Shown here piece by piece: positions 1 to 10,732 of a DNA stretch of 11,389 nucleotides (position 1 is the stretch's first letter; every line of letters begins with the position of its first letter). A program made the position numbers and the translations under genes. Below the pieces are notes generated by a model. The model made no database searches and had not been told where the DNA came from. It saw only the letters and a list, made by a program, of their open reading frames with translations. The DNA lies in the IMG/VR virus record IMGVR_UViG_3300029167_000082. The stretch is one strand, 5' to 3'. This DNA comes from a virus. Its lineage: Duplodnaviria > Heunggongvirae > Uroviricota > Caudoviricetes.

Positions 1-642
1 TCATTCTTCACCCACCAATTCATCCAGTTCAGCCAGCGTCAGAGGCTTTGGTACAGGCTTGTCGATATCGCCCATAATGCGCTGGAAGTTTCTGGCGGGC
101 ATATGGTTACGGTTCTCCAGTATTTTCGCCAGCGCGATAACATCCCACCATTTCAGGGTAATCAGCGCCTGAGCGCGGGAAAGGGATATTCGCTGTATAT
201 CGGCGTCCTCCCCACCAGCTACCCGGTATACCTCGGATAAATCACGAACATTTTTCATATCTGCTTTCCCGGACGTTTCCATCAGTGCGTCAATATCATC
301 CTCCGTATAGCGTGATTGCGCGACGATACCAGCCAGAGAGATAACCATAGCCCGGCATACCTGGTCTATCAGACGTAACCTGGTGTCATCATTCGAGAGG
401 GTGTAAGACTTAACCTCAGCCACATTCCGTGGATAGTTGGCGTGCCATACCGCGACAGCTCCACATTCATCAACATCGCCGCTAAGGTAGGTTTTTGCCA
501 CTCGGTTATTACCCGATAACGCAATTTCTACCTCCTGTATGCCGAAAAACCATGCGGCTATCGCATGACCTGCTTCATGTATTGCAAGATGTCTGGGCCA
601 GCGATAGCTGCCGAACTCAATAATGATGGGTTGCGTACTCAT
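1..642 (-). CDS. FtsH-like (M41-type) zinc metallopeptidase-domain protein, 213 aa
   Basis: ORF-track frame 1..720. HEAGHAIAAW (HExxH zinc-binding motif, identical to the FtsH HEAGHA core) lies 19 aa from the proposed start. Start placed at ATG 640..642 (MSTQPIII) because GAGAGGGAAG lies just upstream and it leaves a 10-nt gap after the SSB stop. TGA stop occupies 1..3, so the CDS is complete at the window edge. Confidence 0.7.
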   Translation of the reverse strand: MSTQPIIIEFGSYRWPRHLAIHEAGHAIAAWFFGIQEVEIALSGNNRVAKTYLSGDVDECGAVAVWHANYPRNVAEVKSYTLSNDDTRLRLIDQVCRAMVISLAGIVAQSRYTEDDIDALMETSGKADMKNVRDLSEVYRVAGGEDADIQRISLSRAQALITLKWWDVIALAKILENRNHMPARNFQRIMGDIDKPVPKPLTLAELDELVGEE

Positions 643-652
643 ATCTTCCCTC

Positions 653-1087
653 TCAGAATGGCGTTTCATCGTCGAATGGTGGGCGTTGGTCGTATTCATC
701 ACGGGATGGCTGCTGCGCACGTCTCAGCGCGTCCGTTGCCTGTCCCCGCTGTCCTGCCTTCCCGCCGGGGCGTACCGTTCTGGCGCTGATCACACTGTCG
801 GCTACTACCTGATACCCCTGCTGTGTACCGCCGTCCTGCCCTGTCCACTGGTTGAGTTGCATATTGCCTGCCACGCTCACAAGGTCGCCTTTCTGGTGCT
901 TCGCCAGCGCATCGGCCTGCTTCCCAAAAGCAATAACGCCCAGCCAGAAGGTTGACTCTCCCGCCTCTGCCGCATTACAGGGGAGAGACACCGCCAGCCG
1001 CGCCATAGCCATGTTGTTACCGTTCGTTGTGGTGCGGGTCTGGGGATCTGCCACCAGCCGCCCGTATGCTGAAATTTGTGCTGTCAT
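653..1087 (-). CDS. ssb: Single-stranded DNA-binding protein (SSB-like), 144 aa
   Basis: OB-fold-like pattern (GRLVADPQ..R.T..G, W..V.AFGK.A, KGDLVSV.G, Y.VVAD.V), a Gly/Gln-rich linker and an acidic C-terminal tail DDETPF resembling the SSB DDDIPF tip. GAGGAA RBS 8 nt upstream of the ATG. Start overlaps the stop of the upstream gene (ATGA). Confidence 0.8.
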   Translation of the reverse strand: MTAQISAYGRLVADPQTRTTTNGNNMAMARLAVSLPCNAAEAGESTFWLGVIAFGKQADALAKHQKGDLVSVAGNMQLNQWTGQDGGTQQGYQVVADSVISARTVRPGGKAGQRGQATDALRRAQQPSRDEYDQRPPFDDETPF

Positions 1088-1386
1088 AGATATTTCCTCA
1101 TGTAGTCACTACCTCCGGGGCTAATTTTCATTTCTTCCCTTAAAGGCCACTGCTCCGCCATTGCTGCGGTCGAGTGATTCCCGTCATCACGTCCGGCCTG
1201 TGCCGCCGTCCAGTGTGTTGCATATTCTGTAAATCCAATTTCTGCTGGCTGCCTCATCCAGTGGGCGATCATCCTCAAGGTCATTTGCAGGCTTTGGGTG
1301 TCGCCCTGTAATGCGCGTTTGTCAGTAAACCCCTTCAATGCTTCACGCTCCTGATAGGTCATTTTCTGGCTGGTTTCTGTATTCAT
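1084..1386 (-). CDS. Hypothetical protein, 100 aa
   Basis: ORF-track frame 1084..1449. Start chosen at ATG 1384..1386 (MNTETSQ) because GAAGGTGG lies 5 nt upstream. Stop overlaps the ssb start, suggesting translational coupling. No motif recognised. Confidence 0.55.
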   Translation of the reverse strand: MNTETSQKMTYQEREALKGFTDKRALQGDTQSLQMTLRMIAHWMRQPAEIGFTEYATHWTAAQAGRDDGNHSTAAMAEQWPLREEMKISPGGSDYMRKYL

Positions 1387-1437
1387 TGCCCACCTTCGTT
1401 TTAAGCTACCCCCCATAGAATCTTTTTGGGGGTGTAA

Positions 1438-1684
1438 TATCCCTACCAATCCCTACTAACTGGCTCAGGCCACGAATGGCAAGGCTTTCAGACTGGTAGG
1501 CATTCAATTTTGTTGCCCTACATAACCCTACTTATCCCTACTAAATCACTTCAACGGCATTTTACTGCCTGTTTTATTTGGTAGGGATATGTAGGGATAA
1601 GTAGGGATAAAAATATATATCCCTACCTAGTTTAAAGCCTTGCTACGTCTGGCCTCGTCTCGTTTTTAGTAGGGCAGTAGGGAT
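1438..1684. repeat. Iteron array (CCCTAC / GTAGGG hexamer core, unit roughly TATCCCTAC) with an AT-rich stretch; putative origin of replication
   Basis: CCCTAC on plus at 1441, 1451, 1516, 1526, 1536, 1621; its complement GTAGGG at 1581, 1591, 1601, 1669, 1677. Three clusters have exact 10-bp phasing. AAAATATATAT at 1610..1620. Lies directly downstream of the primase-helicase gene. Confidence 0.65.
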
Positions 1685-1703
1685 AAGTGCCGCCGTAAAA
1701 GTT

Positions 1704-4145
1704 TCAATCATCACTCTGCCCGCTCTCCACACCGTAAGCGCGTGGCATGAACTCCTCAGCCTTCTCGTTATAGCCAACGTTGGTTTGCGCTCTGCCGTTA
1801 ATGCTTCTCGTCAGGTAGCTGGCTCGGTACTCTTTTGCTGCTGATTTTATGGCGCGTGAAAACTTATTGACGGAAAGCGGTTTACCCAAACCGTGATACT
1901 CCATAAACGCCAGATAAAGATGATAAAGATACGTCCTAGGCTCTGGCTGGCCTGCCCATGTACCTCCGCCCATCATCATGCCTTTGGGTTCGTTCATGAA
2001 AAAAAGTGCCGCACACATATCGATAACCGGATCTGTGCCGCGTTTAACGTCTAGCGCCTCCTGAGAATCGCGCTGCTCAAGTAATAGTGACTTTGCTTTG
2101 TTCTGGTCGGCAAAGGTGGTTAGCAGGTGGCGGATAATCACCGGGATTTCTCGCCTGATTTTTGCGGTTAAATCCGGGTCTTTGTCTGCGTCTGATACCG
2201 GGTTATTAAACGGGAATATCACGCGGCGGCGGGCAATGCCCCCGTTTCGCTCCGTGAATGTCATCGGCTCGTTATTGGTTGCCATAACAACGGCATTTAT
2301 CACGGTTGTGAACTGCTTTTCATATTTCCCATCAATCTCTACCGGATCGCCGCCCGTAATGGCTTTAATCCCCGCACCCTCTCCAACATAGCGGGTCTGG
2401 TCAGGCATAATAATCAGGCTTTTTCCTACGAACTGCGCCCGTCCCCGTGCGGTGTCCAGCGTCATCATGCTACCGCTGGCGGTGTTGTGTTCACCTGCCA
2501 GCGTGGTTGCTATGCTGCTGAATACGGATTTCCCACTACCGCCCTCGCCAGTTATCTCAATGAATAGCTGCCAGTCGTGACGCTTCGCCAGCACCATAAA
2601 CAAGGCTGCTTTGATACGCTCGGCCTTATGATGGTCGCCAGCCGTTGCATGATTCAGCCAACGGGTAAAATTGGGGGCGCTGGTGGTAATATTTTCCCCC
2701 GGCGCTGGCGGGGTGTAGGTGATCCCATTGTGGTTCATCAGCCAGTTACCCGGCGAATGGGCGGAAAACGTCTGCGTAGCGAGGTCATAAACGCCGTTAT
2801 CAAAACCAATCAGATCCCCGCTCCGCTCACCAATTACCGGTATTTGCAGCTTCATGGTTGCGACAACCGATTTAATCCCCTTTTCGGTGTAGTGGGCTTC
2901 GTGCTCGTCGAAAATTGCCACCATAACCCTTTCTAATTCGCTGTCTGGTAGCTTCACCCATACGCCAGATTCGTAGCAGTAAACAGTGCCACTATCAGGG
3001 TTAACCGCCAACATATCCCATCGAGATGAAAGCAACCGCGCTTTCTGGCTGGCTGCCATTTGTGCAATATCTCCGACATCGGCTTTACGGCGGGATTTAC
3101 CGCCCTCAATGGCTTGCAATCGCGGTTTCACGGCTTCCCCTTGAATCTGGTACATCGAATCGTTAAACGCAGCCGTAGCGACTTCCAGCCCGTTTTGCTG
3201 GCGGTAGTCGTCCCAGTCGGCTTTGTAGTCTGTCGGCGGCAGTGCCACCCAGCCAGCCACGGATAAGGCGGCTTTCTCTGCGGCATCTTTGCCCGTGTTC
3301 GCCTGTTCGTCCTGCTGGTGGTCGTTATCTGCGGCAATGATAATCTGCGTGGCTGGATATATCCGGCGCATCACTTCGGCAACGGGTAGCAGGTTGCCCG
3401 CGTCAATTGCTGCCACTGCCAGCGCGTCCGGGCGCATCAGGTGAACTGAAAGGGCCGTCGCCAGCCCCTCGGCAATTAAAACGCTCTGCGGCGATTCTGG
3501 CGCGTTTACGGCGTGATATGCCCCGCGCTTTGCTGAACCTGTCAGGAGTCGCTTCTCTCCCTGCGGTGTAATGGTTTGCGCTGCTGCCACTGCGCCGGAT
3601 TCGTCCACCAGCTCCAGCAATAACGAACCATCCGGCATAACCGGATAGTTAAACCCGGTCAGCCCTTTTGATTGCAGGTAATCAGATTCGCCCTGTGTGG
3701 CACTCTGGCGCATTCCGGCATACAGATGGGCAAACGTAGCCCTTCGCTGCTCTGCGTCATCTGCTGCCTGTTGCTGGCGCTCCTGCTCACGCTGCTGGCG
3801 GTCAGCTTCCAGTTGCTCCCTTCTCTGGCTCGCTGCCGCCGGGTCGGTTTGCGCTGCCCGGTAATCAATACCCAGCACATCAGCGGCAAGCTGTGCCGCC
3901 TCTGTGGTGTCGCAGTTGTTCACCTTCTTAATCAGGTCTAAGCCGTCGCCCGCGCCGCATTGGTTACAGATAAAGCTACCGCGACCGTTGTCGTCGAACC
4001 GGAAGCGATCCGTACCGCCACATGCAGGGCAGGGGGCATGACGGCGTGATGAATCAGGCACGTCGATAGACAGGCCAGCCAGCACATAAGGCCAGCGCCC
4101 TGCTGCGGCGCTGGTCACTTCGCGGATAAGGTCGATATTACGCAT
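1704..4145 (-). CDS. P4 alpha-type bifunctional DNA primase / helicase (zinc-binding N-terminus, TOPRIM primase, P-loop NTPase/helicase), about 813 aa
   Basis: ORF-track frame 1704..4178. N-terminal CPACGG...CNQCG zinc-finger-like motif; TOPRIM-like IAEGLATALS and IIAADNDHQ; Walker A GEGGSGKS. Start placed at ATG 4143..4145 (MRNIDLI) because AGGAGG lies 5 nt upstream; the alternative ATG at 4176..4178 lacks an RBS. Confidence 0.85.
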   Translation of the reverse strand: MRNIDLIREVTSAAAGRWPYVLAGLSIDVPDSSRRHAPCPACGGTDRFRFDDNGRGSFICNQCGAGDGLDLIKKVNNCDTTEAAQLAADVLGIDYRAAQTDPAAASQRREQLEADRQQREQERQQQAADDAEQRRATFAHLYAGMRQSATQGESDYLQSKGLTGFNYPVMPDGSLLLELVDESGAVAAAQTITPQGEKRLLTGSAKRGAYHAVNAPESPQSVLIAEGLATALSVHLMRPDALAVAAIDAGNLLPVAEVMRRIYPATQIIIAADNDHQQDEQANTGKDAAEKAALSVAGWVALPPTDYKADWDDYRQQNGLEVATAAFNDSMYQIQGEAVKPRLQAIEGGKSRRKADVGDIAQMAASQKARLLSSRWDMLAVNPDSGTVYCYESGVWVKLPDSELERVMVAIFDEHEAHYTEKGIKSVVATMKLQIPVIGERSGDLIGFDNGVYDLATQTFSAHSPGNWLMNHNGITYTPPAPGENITTSAPNFTRWLNHATAGDHHKAERIKAALFMVLAKRHDWQLFIEITGEGGSGKSVFSSIATTLAGEHNTASGSMMTLDTARGRAQFVGKSLIIMPDQTRYVGEGAGIKAITGGDPVEIDGKYEKQFTTVINAVVMATNNEPMTFTERNGGIARRRVIFPFNNPVSDADKDPDLTAKIRREIPVIIRHLLTTFADQNKAKSLLLEQRDSQEALDVKRGTDPVIDMCAALFFMNEPKGMMMGGGTWAGQPEPRTYLYHLYLAFMEYHGLGKPLSVNKFSRAIKSAAKEYRASYLTRSINGRAQTNVGYNEKAEEFMPRAYGVESGQSDD

Positions 4146-4479
4146 GGTTGCCTCCTGCCACGGTCGCGCCCATATCATTAATCATGCTTTGCCATATCTC
4201 GCGCCCGGTATCAGTCAGGCCACCAGCATTGACGCATTTCTCCAGCATGGTGATCCCGATGCTTTCCCACTGAGGGTATGTCTCTTTGAGTGCTTCGAGC
4301 GCGTAACCATCAATAAGTTGGCGCGTGCCACTGATACCGCCCACCAGTTCCACACGGATTTGCTGGCCTGCCGCGTCAACCATGAAGTAATTGCCACCAT
4401 TGATAGCCGTGATGTGGTTGTAAAGTGCCGCCGCGTACTGGTTCGCCAGCGCATTCAGTCGGAAGTTTTTGGTAATCAT
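4138..4479 (-). CDS. Hypothetical protein, 113 aa
   Basis: ORF-track ORF. GAGGGGG RBS 5 nt upstream of the ATG. Its 3' end overlaps the primase start by 8 nt. No motif recognised. Confidence 0.55.
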   Translation of the reverse strand: MITKNFRLNALANQYAAALYNHITAINGGNYFMVDAAGQQIRVELVGGISGTRQLIDGYALEALKETYPQWESIGITMLEKCVNAGGLTDTGREIWQSMINDMGATVAGGNHA

Positions 4480-5509: not shown

Positions 5510-5703
5510 CGCTTCCCCTCCCGTTCTGCCAATTCTTCAATCAGCCATGCGGTAACGTCACCGGAAAGGCGCTTTAGCGGAGTGGCGATTGCGGATACTT
5601 CGCTATCGGCAAGGTGATGGGGGAAGTCTTCAACCAGACGGGCAATTATTTCAGTCTGGTGCGCGCGTTCTGCGGCCTGCTCTAAGGTGAGTTCACGGCT
5701 CAT
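5506..5703 (-). CDS. Small hypothetical protein, 65 aa
   Basis: ORF-track ORF. GGAGGTGG RBS 5 nt upstream. ATGA overlap with the Icd-like gene stop. No motif recognised. Confidence 0.5.
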   Translation of the reverse strand: MSRELTLEQAAERAHQTEIIARLVEDFPHHLADSEVSAIATPLKRLSGDVTAWLIEELAEREGKR

Positions 5704-5888
5704 GCTGCCACCTCCAGACGGATGCGGCCTGCAAAGAAACAGACGTGATCTCGTGCCAGAGTTTGACGTGCTTCGCGCTCGCTTTCGGCAGCAACATGAT
5801 GGATTTTGGCGGTAATTGTCGGCATGTCGCGGCGAACGGCTGCGATTAACCAGATAAATTGTGGATTTTGGGTAGGGGTAGTAGCCAT
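5700..5888 (-). CDS. Small protein, 62 aa, possibly Icd-like (host cell division inhibitor family as annotated in P4-like islands)
   Basis: C-terminal 62 codons of ORF-track frame 5700..6578. Internal ATG at 5886..5888 (MATTPTQNPQF) is preceded by a strong AAGGAGG RBS. The Icd-like assignment is from recalled resemblance only and is not verified. Confidence 0.5.
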   Translation of the reverse strand: MATTPTQNPQFIWLIAAVRRDMPTITAKIHHVAAESEREARQTLARDHVCFFAGRIRLEVAA

Positions 5889-6077
5889 GATGGCAGCCTC
5901 CTTTGTGTTTAAGGAGTCACCGCCTGAGTTTCCACGCTCTGAAATGGCGGTGACGTTAGCAGGGGTGGAAATACCGGACACAAAGGAAACCGGCCTACGC
6001 GAACGTAGCCCCACTAACGCCACCATAGATACAGTACGGACGAGGCCGCTGATTTGATGTGCGTAGTGAACGGACAC

Positions 6078-6100
6078 AAAAAAAGACGCTTTCGGCGTCT
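6078..6100 (-). terminator. Rho-independent terminator inside the non-coding control region
   Basis: Minus-strand RNA reads AGACGC-CGAAA-GCGUCU followed by six U: stem 6084..6089 / 6095..6100, loop 6090..6094, A-run on plus at 6078..6083. Lies about 190 nt upstream of the Icd-like start. Confidence 0.6.
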
Positions 6101-6155
6101 GTGTCGCCCTGAGTGTGTTCGGGTTTCCACGCCCGGTTGCTGATTTTGCAGCAAC
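6078..6155 (-). ncRNA. Candidate ~75-80 nt small RNA (possible P4 CI / P1 c4-type immunity RNA analogue)
   Basis: Extended -10-like TGTTATAGT on the minus strand (hexamer at plus 6162..6167) about 7 nt upstream of a run that folds as hairpin 6136..6155 (GTTGCTG / CAGCAAC), hairpin 6120..6135 (CGGG-TTTCCACG-CCCG) and the terminator hairpin. Prediction by eye only. Confidence 0.3.
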
Positions 6156-6516
6156 ACTGGGACTATAACACTGATTTTCCTGCTGGTGGTCTGACCTGTA
6201 GGTACTGCCCTTTTTTACATAGTCCGAAAACTCCCCAGACGGGCGCGTAATGCTCCGAAAACTCAAGACAGCGGAATAATTTTCCACTGGCGTAGTGTTG
6301 TCAGAAAAAACTTTCTCGCGCGTACTGGTCACGAAATGCGAAAAAAACTTAGGATTTATTAGGATTCGCAGCCCAATTCTCAGCCCAGAAAACGCCTCTA
6401 AAATGTCGTCATTTGTCGCAACGGCGCGGCGATGAATGTCAGGTTTTGACAGGTTGTAAGGGTTAACATTTGCTAACAGGCCAGCCAGATTAAAGGCTTC
6501 TTTCTGGGCGGCAGGT

Positions 6517-6699
6517 TCATTCAGTATCACGGCGCACCTCCACGAACTCATTAACGAATCTCTCCAAAGGCTGAACACATGGCGACTGATAGCCCTCGCG
6601 GTAAAAGGTCACTCGGTTATGCTCGACGCGCTCAACGGTCACTACAGCCCCGTGAGAATCCTTGTAACGGCTTCCCGGCTGGGGGTTTTGGTTACGCAT
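6517..6699 (-). CDS. Small hypothetical protein, 60 aa
   Basis: ORF-track ORF. Its start overlaps the antirepressor stop by 8 nt, so it is the last gene of the alpA-led operon. No motif recognised. Confidence 0.5.
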   Translation of the reverse strand: MRNQNPQPGSRYKDSHGAVVTVERVEHNRVTFYREGYQSPCVQPLERFVNEFVEVRRDTE

Positions 6700-7537: not shown

Positions 7538-7969
7538 TTAGGCGGCGTTAAACGCGTTCGGGTAGAGTTTCAGAATGTCGGCAATTTCCTGCTGAGAAAG
7601 TCCGTTGTGATCATTTATGTTCGCAAGATGGTTAACATGAGTGATCACTTTCAGAACATCACCACGGCAGGAGAAACGGTAGCGAAGGTGTGTTCCGATA
7701 CCATCAGGATTCTTTTCGTCGATACGCTCCAGAGTGATTCCAAGCTGGCGTTCTAACTCTGTTGCATAGTTACGACCAGAAGACAGACGGCAGTAGCGAA
7801 GAATGTCATTTTCTGTCCATCCCTCTATACCAGTACGCAGCATATAGACTCTGGCACGATGCTTTTTCGGTGTGCGCTTTGGTGCTTGAAGGGATTTTGT
7901 CAGGGGCGTAACATCAGATACGCGAATATCTGAATTAGCCGCCTGTAATGGGCGGTTTTTCTTTTCCAT
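7538..7969 (-). CDS. Hypothetical protein, 143 aa, translationally coupled to alpA
   Basis: ORF-track ORF. Start ATG 7967..7969 overlaps the alpA stop (ATGA). Basic N-terminus (KRTPKKHRAR); no motif recognised. Confidence 0.55.
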   Translation of the reverse strand: MEKKNRPLQAANSDIRVSDVTPLTKSLQAPKRTPKKHRARVYMLRTGIEGWTENDILRYCRLSSGRNYATELERQLGITLERIDEKNPDGIGTHLRYRFSCRGDVLKVITHVNHLANINDHNGLSQQEIADILKLYPNAFNAA

Positions 7970-8172
7970 CAGGCCACCTTCCCGCGGCGTTCTGCCAGCC
8001 AGTTGTGAATCTCAACCGCATCAAACGCAGTTATTTTTTCTCCCAGCTTTACCGGACGTGGTAGTGAACCGTTTCTTACTTTACGGTCGATGGTGGATAC
8101 ACTAACGCCCAGCAATTCAGCCAGGCGGAAGCGTCTGATATAGCCTTTTGTAGGAATAGTGTCGGTGTTCAT
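7969..8172 (-). CDS. alpA: AlpA-family phage transcriptional regulator / excisionase-like HTH protein, 67 aa
   Basis: Size and pattern match the AlpA family (RLAELLGVSVSTIDRKVRNGSLPRPVKLGEKITAFDAVEIHNWLAER). First gene of the operon after the orphan-gene terminator. Confidence 0.8.
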   Translation of the reverse strand: MNTDTIPTKGYIRRFRLAELLGVSVSTIDRKVRNGSLPRPVKLGEKITAFDAVEIHNWLAERRGKVA

Positions 8173-8286: not shown

Positions 8287-9252
8287 CTACCCCTTACCGT
8301 TGGCGGCAGCACGTAAGTGTCTCAAAATCACATCTTCATTTGTGATTGCTAACGGTGGAATTTCGTCTTTATGAGCCACTATGCAATCCCGCCACTTCTC
8401 AGGGCTTATTTCTTTCTTTTTGCCACGGCATTCATCAGGATACTTTGACAAAAGATATATTGCAGATTTGAAAAGTTTTTCCCTGTTTTCAGCATGTCTC
8501 TCGGCATTATGGTTGCTATTTTTTATTTCAGGTATTAGTTCCTGTTCTACCGCCATTTCGTATCGTTTTTTGCTCTTAGCTGCGTCAAAACTTCCATTAA
8601 CCTTTGCGTCATGAAGGTATTCTAAATCAGCCTTTGTTATATAAATGTTTTTATCTGACAGGCTACTCAGGTGAATTTGGGAACTTTGCATTTTGAATTT
8701 ATATAGATCACAATCAAATGTTGCTTCAAGTCGCACATATGGTTCTCCACATTCTTGTGAATGATAATGTCGTGTTGTTCTACCGCGTACACGCAACAAT
8801 CCACATGCAATTGATTTTCTTACAATAAAAGAGTTTTTGCCAATTTGTTCAAAAACATTTTTATTGTCGCTGTCTTCAACTGTCAGTGGTTTATGTGCAT
8901 AAAATAGCTCATAAGCACCGCTTTCAGATGCTGGGATATAAACTTCGTTGCTTGCGCTGGTAATAAGAAAAGGAAATGTAAACCTTACTTCTTCTGGGTA
9001 CATAAGTAATAAATCAGTTATAAAATTAGCATCTTTTTTGAAGTGGATGGTGGCATCAGATTCAATGAAATCAAGAAAGTCAGCATAGACATAAAAGTCT
9101 ATATGTAGTCTATCTTTCCAATGCCATATATCATCAATTTCACAATTTAATAATTTTGATGCTCGCTCTATCGTGCAGTAGTCCAAAGGTGGAATACCTG
9201 ATTCCTGCCATAAATTTCTATGCACCACTGTTGTTTCATGAGAGTCGTTCAT
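8287..9252 (-). CDS. Hypothetical protein, 321 aa; AT-rich orphan gene in the integrase-adjacent slot
   Basis: ORF-track ORF. AAAGGTGA RBS 6 nt upstream. Hand-counted 60-nt samples give about 32-38% GC against about 53% in a primase sample. Own terminator downstream. No catalytic motif recognised by eye. Confidence 0.75.
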   Translation of the reverse strand: MNDSHETTVVHRNLWQESGIPPLDYCTIERASKLLNCEIDDIWHWKDRLHIDFYVYADFLDFIESDATIHFKKDANFITDLLLMYPEEVRFTFPFLITSASNEVYIPASESGAYELFYAHKPLTVEDSDNKNVFEQIGKNSFIVRKSIACGLLRVRGRTTRHYHSQECGEPYVRLEATFDCDLYKFKMQSSQIHLSSLSDKNIYITKADLEYLHDAKVNGSFDAAKSKKRYEMAVEQELIPEIKNSNHNAERHAENREKLFKSAIYLLSKYPDECRGKKKEISPEKWRDCIVAHKDEIPPLAITNEDVILRHLRAAANGKG

Positions 9253-9347
9253 TGCGTCACCTTTTACGCTGCGCCTTATTTTGTGATTGAGCCAGGCGGT
9301 AAGGCTTCCCGCTTTTCGCCCCGTCGAGCTAGGCTCAATCTATTCAG

Positions 9348-10607
9348 TTAGTTCGCCCTTCTGAGAGGCGTTACGTTGTAGTCTTTTCCGCTTTCCAGTG
9401 CCACCAGCAGATCAGCCCACTGTGCCAGTGCTGCTTTACGCTCATCAAAATACTGATGGCGGTTATAAATCCCCTCTACGCCCTTAATGCGATGATTGAG
9501 GCATCGTTCCGCCACGACAGGATCAACACCCAACGCTGCTAAATGAGTACGTGCGGTGCGTCGGAAGTCGTGAATCGTGAAATTAGGCACATCCGGCATT
9601 TCGGCGCGAACCTTAGCCAGTGCTACGGGCAAAGTGCTTTCCTGAATATGTGGGATCATTCTGTTTTGCATCTTCCTGGCTGGAAGCACCCATGCGCTAT
9701 TACATGAAAAGGTGTGTAGCTCTCTCAACCATTCAACGGCTGGGGAAGGTAGAGGTATATCAATAGGGTCTCCGTTTTTGCTGCGTTCTTCCGGCAAATG
9801 CCATACCGCACCATCTAAATCAAACTCTTCCCATCGTGCGGCGCATAACTCCATCTTACGAACGCATAGTGCCAGCAATAGCTTAAATGTCAGTTCGTTC
9901 TGGCGGCTGAATCCTTTTGCGGTGCGCATAGCCTCGAATAGCCTGATAAGCTCATCGCGAGTTAGCCAACGGTCGCGGGAAACCTCTTTACCACCAGCAT
10001 CAGATACTTCAAACGCTGAACAAGGGTTTATCTCCAGAGCGTGGCGTTTTATCCCGTAGTCAAAGATACGGCGTGTCCAGCGTAATACATCTGTTGCTAT
10101 CGTTGGTGCTCCTCGGTCAACGATACCTTTCAACATGTCGTCAATGTGGCGTGGCTTAACGTCCTCTACCTTCATATGCCCAATGCAGGGGTTAATATCC
10201 TTATCAATTCTCCGGCGAAGGATATCGGGATGTTTCCATCTCGGAAGTATCTGGCGCTCGAAGTATTCGGAGGCCAGATCTGAAACACGCATGGCGTTTT
10301 TCTCAGCCTCCATTTTTGCCAGTGCTTCAGCTTTTCGTTCCTGTTTCTCTGCTGCTACGTCATAGCCAAGAGCAACTCTGGCTGACAGCTCTTTTGCTGT
10401 TTCTCTGGCTTTTGATAGTGACAGTTCGGAGTAAGAGCCTATAACCATAGCCCGCTGCTTTCCTGCGAGCTTATAGCGGAATCGCCAGAACGGGGCTGTG
10501 TAGTTTTTGGGGTAGCAAATATAAAGGCCGTTGCCGTCTGCCTTGCCATCAAATCTGTCTCCCGCCTTTATCCATGCGCGGATCTGCATATCTGTGAGTT
10601 TTGGCAT
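9348..10607 (-). CDS. int: P4-family tyrosine recombinase / integrase, 419 aa
   Basis: ORF-track frame 9348..10691. N-terminus MPKLTD..I.AWIK....DGK.DGNGLYI...WRFRYK matches the P4-type arm-binding domain. C-terminal catalytic region has HDFRRTARTHLAALG and GIYNRHQY (candidate catalytic Tyr). Start chosen at ATG 10605..10607 by homology pattern; the upstream ATG at 10691 lacks an RBS. Confidence 0.9.
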   Translation of the reverse strand: MPKLTDMQIRAWIKAGDRFDGKADGNGLYICYPKNYTAPFWRFRYKLAGKQRAMVIGSYSELSLSKARETAKELSARVALGYDVAAEKQERKAEALAKMEAEKNAMRVSDLASEYFERQILPRWKHPDILRRRIDKDINPCIGHMKVEDVKPRHIDDMLKGIVDRGAPTIATDVLRWTRRIFDYGIKRHALEINPCSAFEVSDAGGKEVSRDRWLTRDELIRLFEAMRTAKGFSRQNELTFKLLLALCVRKMELCAARWEEFDLDGAVWHLPEERSKNGDPIDIPLPSPAVEWLRELHTFSCNSAWVLPARKMQNRMIPHIQESTLPVALAKVRAEMPDVPNFTIHDFRRTARTHLAALGVDPVVAERCLNHRIKGVEGIYNRHQYFDERKAALAQWADLLVALESGKDYNVTPLRRAN

Positions 10608-10635
10608 TGCGAATACCTGAATATCGAATATGGGT

Positions 10636-10688
10636 GTGTACATAAAGCAATGTACATGAAAGTCATTATGTACACCTCTATGTACACG
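10636..10688 (+). repeat. Four direct repeats of (A)TGTACA(T/C) upstream of int; candidate integrase arm-type or regulator binding sites
   Basis: TGTACAT at 10637 and 10651, TGTACAC at 10669 and 10681, all within about 50 bp between the int start and the yicC terminator. One more TGTACAT at 8226..8232 upstream of alpA. Confidence 0.45.
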
Positions 10689-10732
10689 CATATTGTGCGC
10701 TTTATTGCGTCGTTATGATAGCTCATGATAAC

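What the first reader, a model, noticed from the sequence alone, without database searches (positions are those of the whole stretch)
1..1386. Three-gene module downstream of the origin: unknown 100-aa protein, SSB and a stand-alone FtsH-like metallopeptidase domain
The three genes are tightly linked (ATGA overlap, then a 10-nt gap) and located after the replication module. The last protein carries HEAGHAIAAW, the FtsH-type HExxH motif, but is only about 213 aa with no ATPase or membrane part; a soluble M41-like peptidase domain is unusual. Its pairing with an SSB suggests a role tied to ssDNA, such as cleavage of a host or helper-phage factor or counter-defence. The window ends exactly at its stop codon, so any downstream partner is unseen.
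Basis: partly seen in the sequence, partly recalled or inferred. Interest (0 to 1): 0.6.

Follow-up and report, generated by a model that had tools for sequence, protein, structure and literature searches.

The report
ATPase-less FtsH-like peptidase cassette in satellite
The 213-aa protein really is a stand-alone FtsH-type (M41) zinc-peptidase domain, but its regular partner is an exported small protein encoded just beyond the window rather than the neighbouring SSB, and the pair is uncharacterised swappable cargo in a known accessory hotspot of a phage-satellite-like island.

Summary
Observation confirmed. On the minus strand lie a 100-aa ORF (1084-1386), an SSB (653-1087) and a 213-aa HEAGH protein (1-642), with an ATGA overlap and a 10-nt gap, downstream of an iteron origin and a P4-family primase.

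The SSB/ssDNA idea is not supported. The SSB ends the island's replication module, and sister islands at the same dinD-yicC site carry a PerC regulator in the slot instead. The peptidase travels with an exported partner in 12 of 13 contexts. Here the partner is a 116-aa signal-peptide beta-barrel protein whose ATG overlaps the peptidase stop at window 1-4. In Dickeya, Pectobacterium and Serratia it is a 356-aa lipoprotein. Some of these islands have no SSB nearby.

The slot corresponds to the published 'after pri' PICI immune hotspot, but the cassette is unrelated to Tai. Function is untested. My best guess is a phage-interference cassette.

The parts
1..642 (-). 213-aa stand-alone M41 (FtsH-type) zinc-peptidase-domain protein; stop codon at 1-3
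565..579 (-). HEAGH zinc-binding/catalytic motif (H22, E23, H26)
   Evidence: Read from the sequence. H22, E23 and H26 are invariant in 36 distant family members. There is one H22Q exception, P0016, in the close clade. The motif aligns with FtsH HEAGH.
259..261 (-). D128, the predicted third zinc ligand (TSGKADM segment)
   Evidence: Invariant in alignments A1, A2 and A4. It aligns with the Asp of FtsH 'TGAENDF' in the profile-PDB alignment. That this Asp is the third ligand in FtsH crystal structures is from my own knowledge; the reviews read here cite a Glu instead.
1..4 (-). ATGA junction: peptidase stop (1-3) overlapping the start codon (2-4) of a 116-aa exported partner gene that lies beyond the window
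   Evidence: L001 13654-14004. The same 4-nt overlap occurs in L006, L007, L018, L019 and L020. Signal peptide MKQYILAACLISSAPALSA|IHC. AF2 model of the 92%-identical P0189 has pLDDT 84 and forms an 8-strand beta protein.
643..652 (-). 10-nt intergenic spacer with a Shine-Dalgarno-like GAGGGA
   Evidence: Sequence. The same ~10-nt spacing precedes PerC in sister islands.
653..1087 (-). 144-aa SSB, the last gene of the island's replication module
   Evidence: PF00436 E 5.6e-17, TIGR00621 above its cutoff, phrog_44 E 6.7e-34. C-terminal DDETPF. SSB-containing matches occur in about 121 E. coli genomes, against 28 for the peptidase.
1084..1386 (-). 100-aa protein of unknown function; variable, not part of the peptidase cassette
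   Evidence: Only weak hits: phrog_4935 E 2.5e-4 and DUF5551 E 0.012. No PDB relative. Present in L008, L010 and L023, absent from L002-L007, L011 and L012. Unrelated to the 55-aa ORF of other cassettes.
1437..1688 (.). Iteron-rich replication-origin-like region
   Evidence: About 12 GTAGGGATA copies at 10-nt spacing in both orientations.
1704..4178 (-). P4-family primase/helicase (zinc ribbon, Toprim, D5_N, DUF5906); defines the 'after pri' position
   Evidence: Pfam, NCBIfam TIGR01613 and phrog_2249 E 1.8e-149.

Best explanation
Window 1-1386 joins two evolutionary units.

(1) The 100-aa ORF and the SSB are the tail of the replication module (primase, iteron origin, SSB) of an integrase/AlpA/primase island. 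The island is PICI- or P4-like and is inserted between yicC and dinD.

(2) The 213-aa gene is the first gene of a mobile accessory cassette. Its second gene, which starts at window base 4 and runs off the window, encodes an exported ~97-residue beta-barrel protein.

The 213-aa protein is a soluble, cytoplasmic homologue of the FtsH (MEROPS M41) protease domain. It keeps HExxH and the downstream Asp, so it is most likely a working zinc endopeptidase. It lacks the AAA+ unfoldase, so it should cut only exposed or unstructured segments of a specific target and cannot degrade folded proteins processively.

[quoted passage not shown] I therefore infer that it is a phage-interaction cassette (defence or interference). 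In this reading the peptidase cleaves a phage protein, or a host protein the phage needs, in the cytoplasm when the island operon is expressed. The exported partner would act in the periplasm as a binding or inhibitor-type protein.

Shown: gene structure, fold and homology, conserved catalytic residues, cassette linkage, position and distribution. Inferred: catalytic activity, substrate class, and the anti-phage or interference role.

For: Catalytic residues: H22, E23, H26 and D128 are invariant at 19-45% identity and in 26-34%-identical cassette variants. Purifying selection.

Cassette linkage: an exported partner lies directly downstream in 12 of 13 contexts. The 4-nt overlap is conserved.

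Accessory and swappable: PerC occupies the slot in sister islands. The peptidase is in 28 of 5,426 E. coli genomes, against about 121 for the neighbouring stretch. Mosaic dS. A recombinant remnant exists in 30COLEC.

Hotspot: He et al. 2024 (PMC11364771) validated an immune region adjacent to pri in PICIs, including Pectobacterium PICIs. Other cargo in this slot in related loci includes RelA_SpoT+NA37, PemK and ProQ.

Island type: EcCIMP1, with the same gene set, is an experimentally mobilised PICI. No copies were found in phages or plasmids. A partner homologue occurs as a stand-alone moron-like insert in a myophage tail-gene cluster.
Against: There is no functional evidence of any kind. PADLOC has no hit for either gene, and no paper describing the cassette was found. 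The hotspot also carries non-defence cargo (PerC, ProQ), so position alone is weak evidence.

The isolated E. coli FtsH protease domain is mainly monomeric, and casein degradation requires the ATP-driven hexamer. An ATPase-less M41 domain may therefore be a poor protease on its own.

The two halves are separable: Klebsiella has the peptidase without a partner, and myophages have the partner without a peptidase. They may not act together.

One homologue (P0016) has Q in place of H22. The model is only moderately confident (pLDDT 72; residues 3-13 and 41-65 are below 50), and the metal-site geometry could not be measured.
Confidence: 0.4

Rival explanations
1. Regulatory (ImmA/IrrE/CapP-like) protease. 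The peptidase cleaves a small DNA-binding regulator, either the island's own or the helper phage's repressor, and so controls induction of the island or its helper.
For: A conserved ~55-aa ORF with a strand-helix-helix pattern sits directly upstream of the peptidase (stop/start overlapping or abutting) in L018, L019, L020 and L023, about 30 nt upstream in L009, and upstream of the SSB in L006. Distant stand-alone M41-like genes lie immediately next to tyrosine integrases at island edges, as immA does in ICEBs1 (my knowledge). The island also carries an AntA antirepressor and C4/Icd-type immunity elements.
Against: The window's own island lacks the 55-aa ORF. That ORF has no Pfam or PDB relative, so its DNA-binding nature is untested. 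The fold is M41, not M78. The gene lies at the far end from the regulatory region, in a slot that is interchangeable with PerC. This reading does not explain the exported partner.
Confidence: 0.15
2. Host-adaptive cargo unrelated to phages. The peptidase and the exported protein change envelope or stress physiology, or virulence regulation, in the way PerC-type accessory genes of PICIs are thought to.
For: The same slot carries PerC or ProQ/FinO-like genes. A PerC-like gene of PICI EcCIMP1 modulates LEE expression. Both alternative partners are envelope-targeted: one has a signal peptide, the other a lipobox. The partner's best compact structural matches are the periplasmic lysozyme inhibitors PliC/MliC, which are host-defence-evasion factors.
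Confidence: 0.17
3. One reading: an SSB-coupled protease whose activity is tied to ssDNA or to SSB-interacting proteins, with the 100-aa/SSB/peptidase run forming a functional module.
For: The SSB is directly upstream in 6 of 13 contexts and one gene away in 2 more. The genes are tightly spaced and probably co-transcribed. The SSB has a partner-binding-type acidic tip, DDETPF. CapP/IrrE-type proteases respond to ssDNA or DNA damage (my knowledge).
Against: The same SSB lineage occurs without the peptidase, with PerC at the same spacing. The peptidase occurs without an adjacent SSB in Salmonella, Rouxiella and E. coli 30COLEC, and 2 kb from one in Rosenbergiella. Distant family members have no SSB nearby. 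Recombination histories are discordant. The adjacency is explained simply: the SSB is the last gene of the replication module and the accessory slot begins right after it.
Confidence: 0.06
4. FtsH mimic or modulator. The free M41 domain co-assembles with, competes with or titrates partners of host FtsH. That would alter turnover of FtsH substrates such as lambda CII/CIII or LpxC, and so bias the lysis-lysogeny decision of lambdoid helpers or change envelope synthesis.
For: It has the same fold as the FtsH protease domain, which forms the hexameric ring in FtsH structures. E. coli PICIs use lambdoid helpers. FtsH control of lambda CII is established biology (my knowledge). The envelope-targeted partner is loosely reminiscent of periplasm-facing FtsH modulators such as HflKC.
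Against: Structure-based identity to FtsH-type domains is only 10-20%, which makes co-assembly unlikely. Strict conservation of the catalytic residues argues for the protein's own catalysis, not a dominant-negative scaffold. The isolated E. coli protease domain does not readily oligomerise. There is no direct evidence.
Confidence: 0.07
5. A decaying or non-functional remnant (pseudo-protease) with no current role.
For: Truncated copies exist: H52 and H53, and the 115-aa product P0026, which is seen on 100 contigs. One homologue carries H22Q.
Against: dN/dS is 0.10-0.24 across genera. The catalytic residues are invariant down to about 20% identity. The reading frame is intact and the translational coupling is conserved.
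Confidence: 0.03

Closest known systems
FtsH protease domain (MEROPS M41, Pfam PF01434)
   Different: No AAA+ ATPase, no transmembrane or periplasmic N-terminus, only 213 aa. Identity to FtsH-type domains is 10-20%. The protein itself falls below every curated family threshold. It is encoded on a satellite-like island, not as a housekeeping gene.
Automatically annotated single-domain M41 proteins: RefSeq 'peptidase M41 family protein' WP_112872398.1 (223 aa, E. coli 30COLEC island), UniRef 'Peptidase M41 domain-containing protein' (Dickeya, P0013), JGI 'ATP-dependent Zn protease' (about 180-240 aa)
   Same: Same family and same stand-alone architecture. WP_112872398.1 sits in the same kind of island and slot, upstream of the same 116-aa partner gene.
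   Different: These are name-only annotations, and I found no functional or structural study. WP_112872398.1 is only 29% identical to the window protein.
PDB 5iqj, uncharacterised 131-aa Vibrio cholerae protein
   Different: Shorter. Function unknown. I could not check whether it keeps HExxH. The family profile does not detect it by sequence.
ImmA / IrrE / CapP regulatory metallopeptidases (M78, PF06114) of mobile elements and defence operons
   Same: Small soluble HExxH zinc proteases encoded on mobile elements. A small putative DNA-binding ORF precedes the peptidase in several related cassettes.
   Different: No PF06114 hit, and the fold is M41 rather than IrrE-like. There is no HTH or repressor partner in this island.
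Tai (tail assembly inhibition) genes of PICIs, P4-like satellites and phages (He et al. 2024, PMC11364771)
   Same: Same genomic slot ('after pri' accessory region of PICIs, including Pectobacterium PICIs). Similar size (181-212 aa). Also invisible to PADLOC and DefenseFinder.
   Different: Unrelated in sequence. TaiEcA (phi80 gp63) has no HExxH, and hhalign probability against the family is 0.1%. Tai is a single gene with no exported partner.
PliC/MliC periplasmic lysozyme inhibitors (comparison for the exported partner only)

Membership tests
MEROPS M41 / Pfam PF01434 (FtsH-type peptidase domain) | HExxH zinc-binding/catalytic motif on the active-site helix | tested here: met
   HEAGH at residues 22-26 (window 565-579). 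Invariant in 36 distant relatives. Aligned to FtsH HEAGH.
MEROPS M41 / Pfam PF01434 (FtsH-type peptidase domain) | Third metal ligand (Asp) in a conserved segment C-terminal to the motif | tested here: met
   D128 is invariant and aligns with the Asp of FtsH 'GAENDF'. The ligand role in FtsH is from my knowledge of the crystal structures; the geometry in the model was not measured.
MEROPS M41 / Pfam PF01434 (FtsH-type peptidase domain) | Three-dimensional fold of the FtsH protease domain | tested here: met
MEROPS M41 / Pfam PF01434 (FtsH-type peptidase domain) | Score above the curated Pfam gathering threshold | tested here: not met
   There is no PF01434 hit for the window protein at E <= 0.01. 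Membership rests on transitive evidence: the family profile hits FtsH at E 3.3e-10, and 11 of 36 relatives match PF01434 at E <= 0.01, best 1e-13.
FtsH proper (ATP-dependent zinc metalloprotease) | N-terminal membrane anchor and AAA+ ATPase module fused to the peptidase domain | tested here: not met
   The protein is 213 aa with no AAA or transmembrane hits and no hydrophobic segment. It is not an FtsH, only a homologue of FtsH's protease domain.
FtsH proper (ATP-dependent zinc metalloprotease) | Hexameric ring assembly and ATP-dependent proteolysis | not testable with these tools
   No multimer prediction or biochemistry is available. The isolated E. coli protease domain is reported as mainly monomeric.
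ImmA/IrrE M78 regulatory peptidases (PF06114) | PF06114 profile match / IrrE-like fold, adjacent HTH repressor substrate | tested here: not met
   No PF06114 hit. The top structural matches are M41. There is no adjacent HTH gene in the window.
Known anti-phage defence systems (PADLOC-DB 2.0; Tai) | Profile match to a catalogued defence protein; homology to Tai | tested here: not met
   PADLOC has no hit for the peptidase, the partner or the lipoprotein. TaiEcA against the family gives hhalign probability 0.1%.
Lit-type phage-exclusion metalloprotease (peptidase U49) | Pfam Peptidase_U49 profile match | tested here: not met
   No such Pfam hit at E <= 0.01. The resemblance is functional analogy only.
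PICI / P4-like phage satellite (the host element) | Tyrosine integrase, AlpA-type regulator and primase-replicase in conserved order, with no phage structural or lysis genes | tested here: met
   Integrase at 9348-10691, AlpA-type HTH at 7969-8172, P4-family primase at 1704-4178. int-alpA RNA found. No structural or lysis genes in the RefSeq annotation of the island. This gene set equals 'Type C PICI' in SatelliteFinder terms and matches the experimentally mobilised EcCIMP1.
PICI / P4-like phage satellite (the host element) | Capsid-morphogenesis/terS (PICI) or sid/psu/delta (P4) hijacking genes; helper-dependent mobilisation | tested here: inconclusive
   None was recognised among the annotated or Pfam-scanned genes, but not every small ORF was tested. 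Mobilisation is not testable here.
Bacterial SSB (PF00436 / TIGR00621) | OB-fold SSB profile above threshold and an acidic C-terminal tip | tested here: met
   PF00436 62.1 bits (cutoff 26). TIGR00621 57.1 bits (cutoff 53.95). C-terminus ...FDDETPF.
MliC/PliC lysozyme inhibitors (for the exported partner) | Pfam MliC match / strong structural match to the PliC-MliC barrel | tested here: inconclusive

The most novel reading that the evidence does not exclude
The peptidase and its exported partner form a previously undescribed two-compartment anti-phage or helper-interference system carried by phage satellites. It would comprise an ATP-independent FtsH-like zinc endopeptidase that cleaves a phage (or phage-required host) protein in the cytoplasm, together with a periplasmic beta-barrel or lipoprotein component. 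This would be the first function assigned to a free M41 domain.
Probability: 0.25. Interest if true: 0.7.

Novelty: new variant of a known kind. Interest (0 to 1): 0.45.

Why it matters
M41 peptidases are known almost entirely as the C-terminal half of the membrane-bound, ATP-driven FtsH machines. A conserved, selected, catalytically intact M41 domain without its unfoldase raises two questions: what can such a domain cut on its own, and what does a phage satellite gain from it? The cassette lies in a slot where PICIs have been shown to carry immune genes that current defence-finding tools miss. It is therefore a concrete, cheap-to-test candidate for a new phage-interaction function, and for the first biochemical role of a stand-alone M41 domain. 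The practical lesson for the scan is that gene adjacency (SSB next to peptidase) reflected a module boundary, not a functional pairing. The true partner lay one base beyond the window.

Tried and rejected
1. Direct family assignment of the 213-aa protein failed. Pfam, NCBIfam, PHROGs and PADLOC gave nothing except a sub-threshold Peptidase_M50B match on the HExxH helix. Single-sequence and close-family profile searches of PDB were not significant. Only the broader family profile and the fold search resolved it.

2. The genome-contig scan with the broad alignment failed because the pattern was generic and picked up true FtsH. The retry with the close family gave only 3 loci.

3. Tai hypothesis. 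The size and position of the Tai genes suggested identity with the M41-like protein. I fetched phi80 gp63 (TaiEcA) and rejected this: no HExxH, hhalign probability 0.1%, no Pfam hit, and no Tai homologue in any of my loci.

4. The 100-aa protein as a relative of the 55-aa upstream ORF of other cassettes was rejected (hhalign probability about 0).

5. The 55-aa ORF as a recognisable ribbon-helix-helix protein: no Pfam or PDB support, so this remains a pattern-based guess.

6. The 116-aa and 356-aa partners as relatives of each other: no BLAST similarity; not tested by profile-profile comparison.

7. Phage neighbours of the partner homologue as hidden M41-like proteins were rejected.

8. The viral fold library gave no significant relative of the peptidase.

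9. Literature searches for stand-alone M41 proteins in satellites, defence systems or prophages found nothing relevant. I could not confirm from open papers that Asp is the third FtsH zinc ligand, and the reviews I read cite a Glu.

I used the 92%-identical P0189 instead.
Full report
OBSERVATION. The window is a chromosomal island of Escherichia coli, and all of its island genes read on the minus strand. The ORF list and translations confirm the finding's coordinates exactly. A 100-aa ORF lies at 1084-1386. A 144-aa ORF lies at 653-1087, and its ATG overlaps the preceding stop as ATGA (1084-1087). A 10-nt spacer follows (643-652, GAGGGAAGAT on the coding strand, Shine-Dalgarno-like). A 213-aa ORF lies at 1-642, and its TGA is window bases 1-3. 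The longer GTG-initiated reading of that ORF (239 aa) is not supported, because all 20 close homologues start at the same Met. HEAGHAIAAW is present, with HEAGH encoded at 565-579. The middle gene is a bona fide SSB: PF00436 E 5.6e-17, TIGR00621 above its curated cutoff, phrog_44 E 6.7e-34, and a C-terminal DDETPF tip. 'Downstream of the origin' is also right. Between the P4-family primase gene (1704-4178) and the 100-aa ORF lie about a dozen GTAGGGATA iterons at 10-nt spacing in both orientations (1437-1688). Pairwise dN/dS values of 0.10-0.24 (peptidase) and 0.06-0.23 (SSB) show that these are real, constrained genes.

WHERE IT SITS. An identical stretch occurs in eight complete E. coli genomes. 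In strain ECONIH4 (locus L001) the island lies between yicC and dinD. Its gene order is integrase, a 321-aa ORF, an AlpA-type regulator, a 143-aa ORF, an AntA antirepressor, DUF4222, an Icd-like gene, small ORFs, the primase, the origin, the 100-aa ORF, the SSB and the 213-aa ORF. The operon does not stop at window base 1. A 116-aa ORF follows, its ATG overlapping the peptidase stop (ATGA at window 1-4). After it come 158-aa and 61-aa ORFs, a pRiA4b ORF-3 family gene and a convergent 119-aa ORF. In SatelliteFinder terms, integrase + AlpA + primase without structural or lysis genes is a 'Type C PICI', a category that also captures P4-like elements. An island with the same gene set (integrase, AlpA, antirepressor, Ash, primase, PerC), EcCIMP1, has been shown experimentally to be induced and mobilised by a helper phage. 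Rfam finds a C4 antisense RNA, its a1/b1 targets, isrK and the int-alpA RNA elsewhere in the window, which fits this kind of element.

WHAT THE 213-aa PROTEIN IS. Curated libraries do not recognise it. Pfam gives only a sub-threshold Peptidase_M50B match on the HExxH helix, and NCBIfam, PHROGs and PADLOC give nothing. A single-sequence search of PDB finds nothing, and the close-family profile touches FtsH only at E about 2. Three independent lines nevertheless place it in the FtsH (M41) protease-domain superfamily.

(ii) Profile. An exhaustive HMM search of 1.84 billion representative proteins found 70 relatives at E <= 1e-3, nearly all 175-290 aa. A profile of 36 of them hits solved FtsH structures at E 3.3e-10 in three colinear blocks: the HEAGH helix, the 'LAG..AE...sGxxD' segment and the C-terminal helices. 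In the large protein database the same profile retrieves both single-domain PF01434 proteins and full-length AAA+M41 FtsH.

(iii) Transitivity. 11 of the 36 relatives individually match Pfam Peptidase_M41 at E <= 0.01 (best 1e-13).

Across these 36 sequences, which are 19-45% identical to the window protein, the only invariant columns are H22, E23, H26, G105, A108, D128 and A172. D128 aligns with the Asp of FtsH 'TGAENDF'. In FtsH crystal structures that Asp is the third zinc ligand, but this is my own knowledge. The open reviews I could read cite a Glu instead, and the equivalent of that Glu is Q109 here. The protein has no hydrophobic segment or signal peptide and no ATPase module. It is therefore a soluble homologue of the FtsH protease domain with an intact catalytic set. 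It is not an FtsH.

HOW UNUSUAL IS IT? The close family is small: 24 clusters at 90% identity, essentially all Enterobacterales. Only 3 loci turned up among 185,579 species-representative genomes, and 28 of 5,426 complete E. coli genomes carry it. No copy was found in 50,697 phage or 72,556 plasmid records, either for this protein or for two divergent variants. The viral structure library holds no significant relative. The architecture is not unknown to databases, though. One sister protein is named 'Peptidase M41 domain-containing protein' in UniRef, and another is 'peptidase M41 family protein' in RefSeq (WP_112872398.1). Several metagenomic proteins of 180-240 aa carry PF01434 alone. I found no paper that studies any of them.

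THE SSB IS A NEIGHBOUR, NOT A PARTNER. Three observations separate the two genes.

First, the SSB/100-aa/origin stretch occurs in about 121 complete E. coli genomes, 52 of them with at least 80% coverage, whereas the peptidase occurs in 28. In sister islands at the same dinD-yicC site (L010, L011, L012) the gene that follows the SSB at the same ~10-nt spacing is a PerC-family regulator. The flanking 61-aa, pRiA4b and 119-aa genes are shared.

Second, divergent members of the peptidase family (26-34% identical, hhalign probability 99.8%, HEAGH and D128 intact) occur with no adjacent SSB. In Salmonella the gene lies between the integrase and alpA. In Rouxiella it lies beside RelA_SpoT/NA37 cargo. 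In Rosenbergiella it is 2 kb from the SSB, with other genes between. In E. coli 30COLEC a different M41-like allele has replaced the SSB and the N-terminal half of 'our' peptidase, leaving a 115-aa remnant. More distant stand-alone M41-like genes sit next to tyrosine integrases, AAA_25 ATPases and HNH genes in small integrative elements, again without an SSB.

Third, histories differ. Between E. coli and locus L007, dS is 0.10 for the peptidase but 0.83 for the SSB.

The frequent adjacency (SSB directly upstream in 6 of 13 contexts, one gene away in 2 more) has a simple explanation. The SSB is the last gene of the replication module, and the accessory slot begins right after it. The 100-aa ORF is also not part of the unit. 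It is missing from most peptidase-bearing loci and has only marginal matches.

The linkage is strong but not absolute. A Klebsiella island has SSB-peptidase-PerC with no exported partner. A genuine homologue of the partner (hhalign probability 97.6%; phrog_3443) sits alone among tail and baseplate genes of E. coli myophages with no M41-like neighbour. A third, optional component is a ~55-aa ORF with a strand-helix-helix pattern. It sits directly upstream of the peptidase (stop/start overlapping or abutting) in L018, L019, L020 and L023, about 30 nt upstream in L009, and upstream of the SSB in L006. It is absent from this island and has no recognisable relatives.

THE SLOT. He et al. [quoted passage not shown] They validated it by showing that genes from this position in two Pectobacterium PICIs, which PADLOC and DefenseFinder do not recognise, protect against lambdoid phages (the Tai system). 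Tai genes are 181-212 aa and lie 'after pri', so I tested whether Tai is the M41-like protein. It is not. TaiEcA (phi80 gp63) has no HExxH and is unrelated by profile comparison (probability 0.1%), and none of my loci contains a Tai homologue. The cassette thus shares the hotspot but is a different thing. In related loci the same region holds other typical cargo: PerC, ProQ/FinO-like, RelA_SpoT+NA37 and PemK genes. So the slot carries both defence-type and host-regulatory genes.

HOW IT MOST LIKELY WORKS. Shown: a cytoplasmic M41-fold protein with a conserved HExxH...D set, no unfoldase, translationally coupled to an exported partner, carried as swappable cargo in satellite accessory slots, and under purifying selection. 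Inferred: it is an active zinc endopeptidase. FtsH needs its ATP-driven hexamer to degrade a protein such as casein, and its isolated protease domain is mainly monomeric. The free domain should therefore be limited to exposed or unstructured sites in a specific target, which means regulatory or inactivating cleavage and not bulk degradation. Given where it is carried, my best guess (about 0.4 for the whole statement, about 0.9 for the identity part) is a phage-interaction cassette. In this reading a cytoplasmic cleavage of a phage or phage-required protein is paired with a periplasmic binding or inhibitor-type protein.

The rivals are these. An ImmA-like regulatory protease (0.15) is favoured by the 55-aa ORF and by integrase-adjacent distant relatives, and disfavoured by the absence of that ORF here and by the M41 rather than M78 fold. 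Host-adaptive cargo in the manner of PerC (0.17). An FtsH mimic or modulator affecting, for example, lambda CII (0.07) is disfavoured by the 10-20% identity and by conserved catalysis. A decaying remnant (0.03). None of these can be decided without experiments. The decisive ones are catalytic-mutant phage-challenge assays, satellite transfer assays, zinc, oligomer and activity measurements with and without ATP, ssDNA and SSB, substrate trapping with E23Q, and export and lysozyme-inhibition tests for the partner.

NOVELTY AND SCORE. The fold family is known, and the single-domain architecture is already auto-annotated for sister proteins, so this is not a new kind of protein. As far as I could search, the following are undescribed: the free, catalytically intact M41 domain as a conserved component of a two-gene cassette with an exported partner; its restriction to satellite-like islands; and its residence in a validated immune hotspot. 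I rate it a new variant of a known kind, with moderate interest (0.45). It is a well-defined, testable candidate, but one of many uncharacterised cargo cassettes, and it has no functional evidence yet.

CAVEATS. The peptidase model is of moderate confidence, and I could not measure metal-site geometry. The record titles of two loci (a 'Chryseobacterium' and a 'Pseudomonas graminis' assembly) look inconsistent with the otherwise enterobacterial distribution and may reflect contamination or mislabelling. The 13-context tally is a convenience sample, not a census.

Noticed in passing
window 5943-6168 (-) and 9273-9339 (-): Rfam hits above gathering score: C4 antisense RNA (5943-6030, 81 bits), isrK (6079-6155), the c4 a1/b1 target element (6116-6168) and the int-alpA RNA (9273-9339). 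The long 'ORF' at 5700-6578, annotated Icd-like in RefSeq, overlaps these RNAs. This suggests a P1/P4-type antisense immunity circuit controlling icd/ant-like genes in this island.
   Followed up: no
window 1437-1688: About 12 copies of GTAGGGATA at 10-nt spacing in both orientations, forming long imperfect inverted repeats (an 80-nt arm pair at 73%). This is a clear iteron-type origin between the primase and the 100-aa ORF.
   Followed up: partly
L010 5708-5989, L011 5678-5989, L012 5678-5989, L021 6687-6992, L009 1876-2160: A PerC-family regulator occupies the slot right after the SSB in sister islands. In Klebsiella it follows the peptidase, and in a metagenomic Enterobacteriaceae contig it precedes the cassette. 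PerC and the peptidase cassette are therefore alternative or combinable cargo of the same slot.
   Followed up: partly
L023 5001-6249 (E. coli 30COLEC, island at the dsdC/torI site): A recombinant arrangement: a truncated 100-aa-like ORF, a 57-aa ORF, a different M41-like allele (223 aa, RefSeq 'peptidase M41 family protein', 29% identical), then a 115-aa C-terminal remnant of the window-type peptidase, then the 116-aa partner. No SSB is present. The 115-aa remnant (P0026) is recorded on 100 contigs, so this variant is common.
   Followed up: partly
L006 7370-7537, L009 2306-2494, L018 5268-5444, L019 5265-5429, L020 5241-5408, L023 6076-6249: A conserved ~55-aa ORF (…KPVLLSxxQIxAIRxIQExER…APTIHVIARxLMxKAL…) precedes the M41-like gene, or the SSB in L006. 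Its strand-helix-helix pattern suggests a ribbon-helix-helix DNA-binding protein, but it has no Pfam, PHROG or PDB relatives. A 29%-identical copy in L012 precedes unrelated genes.
   Followed up: partly
L025 3001-3845 (Escherichia phage vB_EcoM-683R1 and three related myophages): A 111-aa exported homologue of the partner (phrog_3443) and a 170-aa ORF (phrog_19013, unknown function) are inserted among tail and baseplate genes, like a moron pair.
   Followed up: partly
L001 22372-23982: In strain ECONIH4 an ISSpu7 (IS1634-like) transposase gene is inserted between the AlpA-type gene and the 321-aa ORF. The window has no such insertion there (alpA ends at 8172 and the 321-aa ORF begins at 9252, with no intervening IS), so the window derives from another carrier of the same island.
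   Followed up: no
L001 11493-12387 (also L010, L011, L012, L023): A convergent, overlapping pair is conserved at the dinD-proximal end of all these islands regardless of the cargo in the slot: a pRiA4b ORF-3 family gene (PF07929, E 2.8e-42) and a 119-aa ORF on the opposite strand. Its function is unknown.
   Followed up: no
L019 2009-4095, L006 4436-6989, L022 9358-9792: Other cargo lies after the primase in related islands: a RelA_SpoT-domain gene next to an NA37 gene, an NA37 gene plus a 494-aa gene, and a PemK toxin. These look like candidate defence or toxin cargo in the same region.
   Followed up: no
L007 (record titled Chryseobacterium sp. 18061) and L006 (record titled Pseudomonas graminis): These records carry islands whose peptidase is 95% and 71% identical to the E. 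coli protein. Such islands are otherwise seen only in Enterobacterales, so the organism labels may reflect contamination or mis-assignment.
   Followed up: no
L011 1134-3135: Strain GN4143 carries two dinD copies flanking the island end, a duplication at the integration boundary.
   Followed up: no
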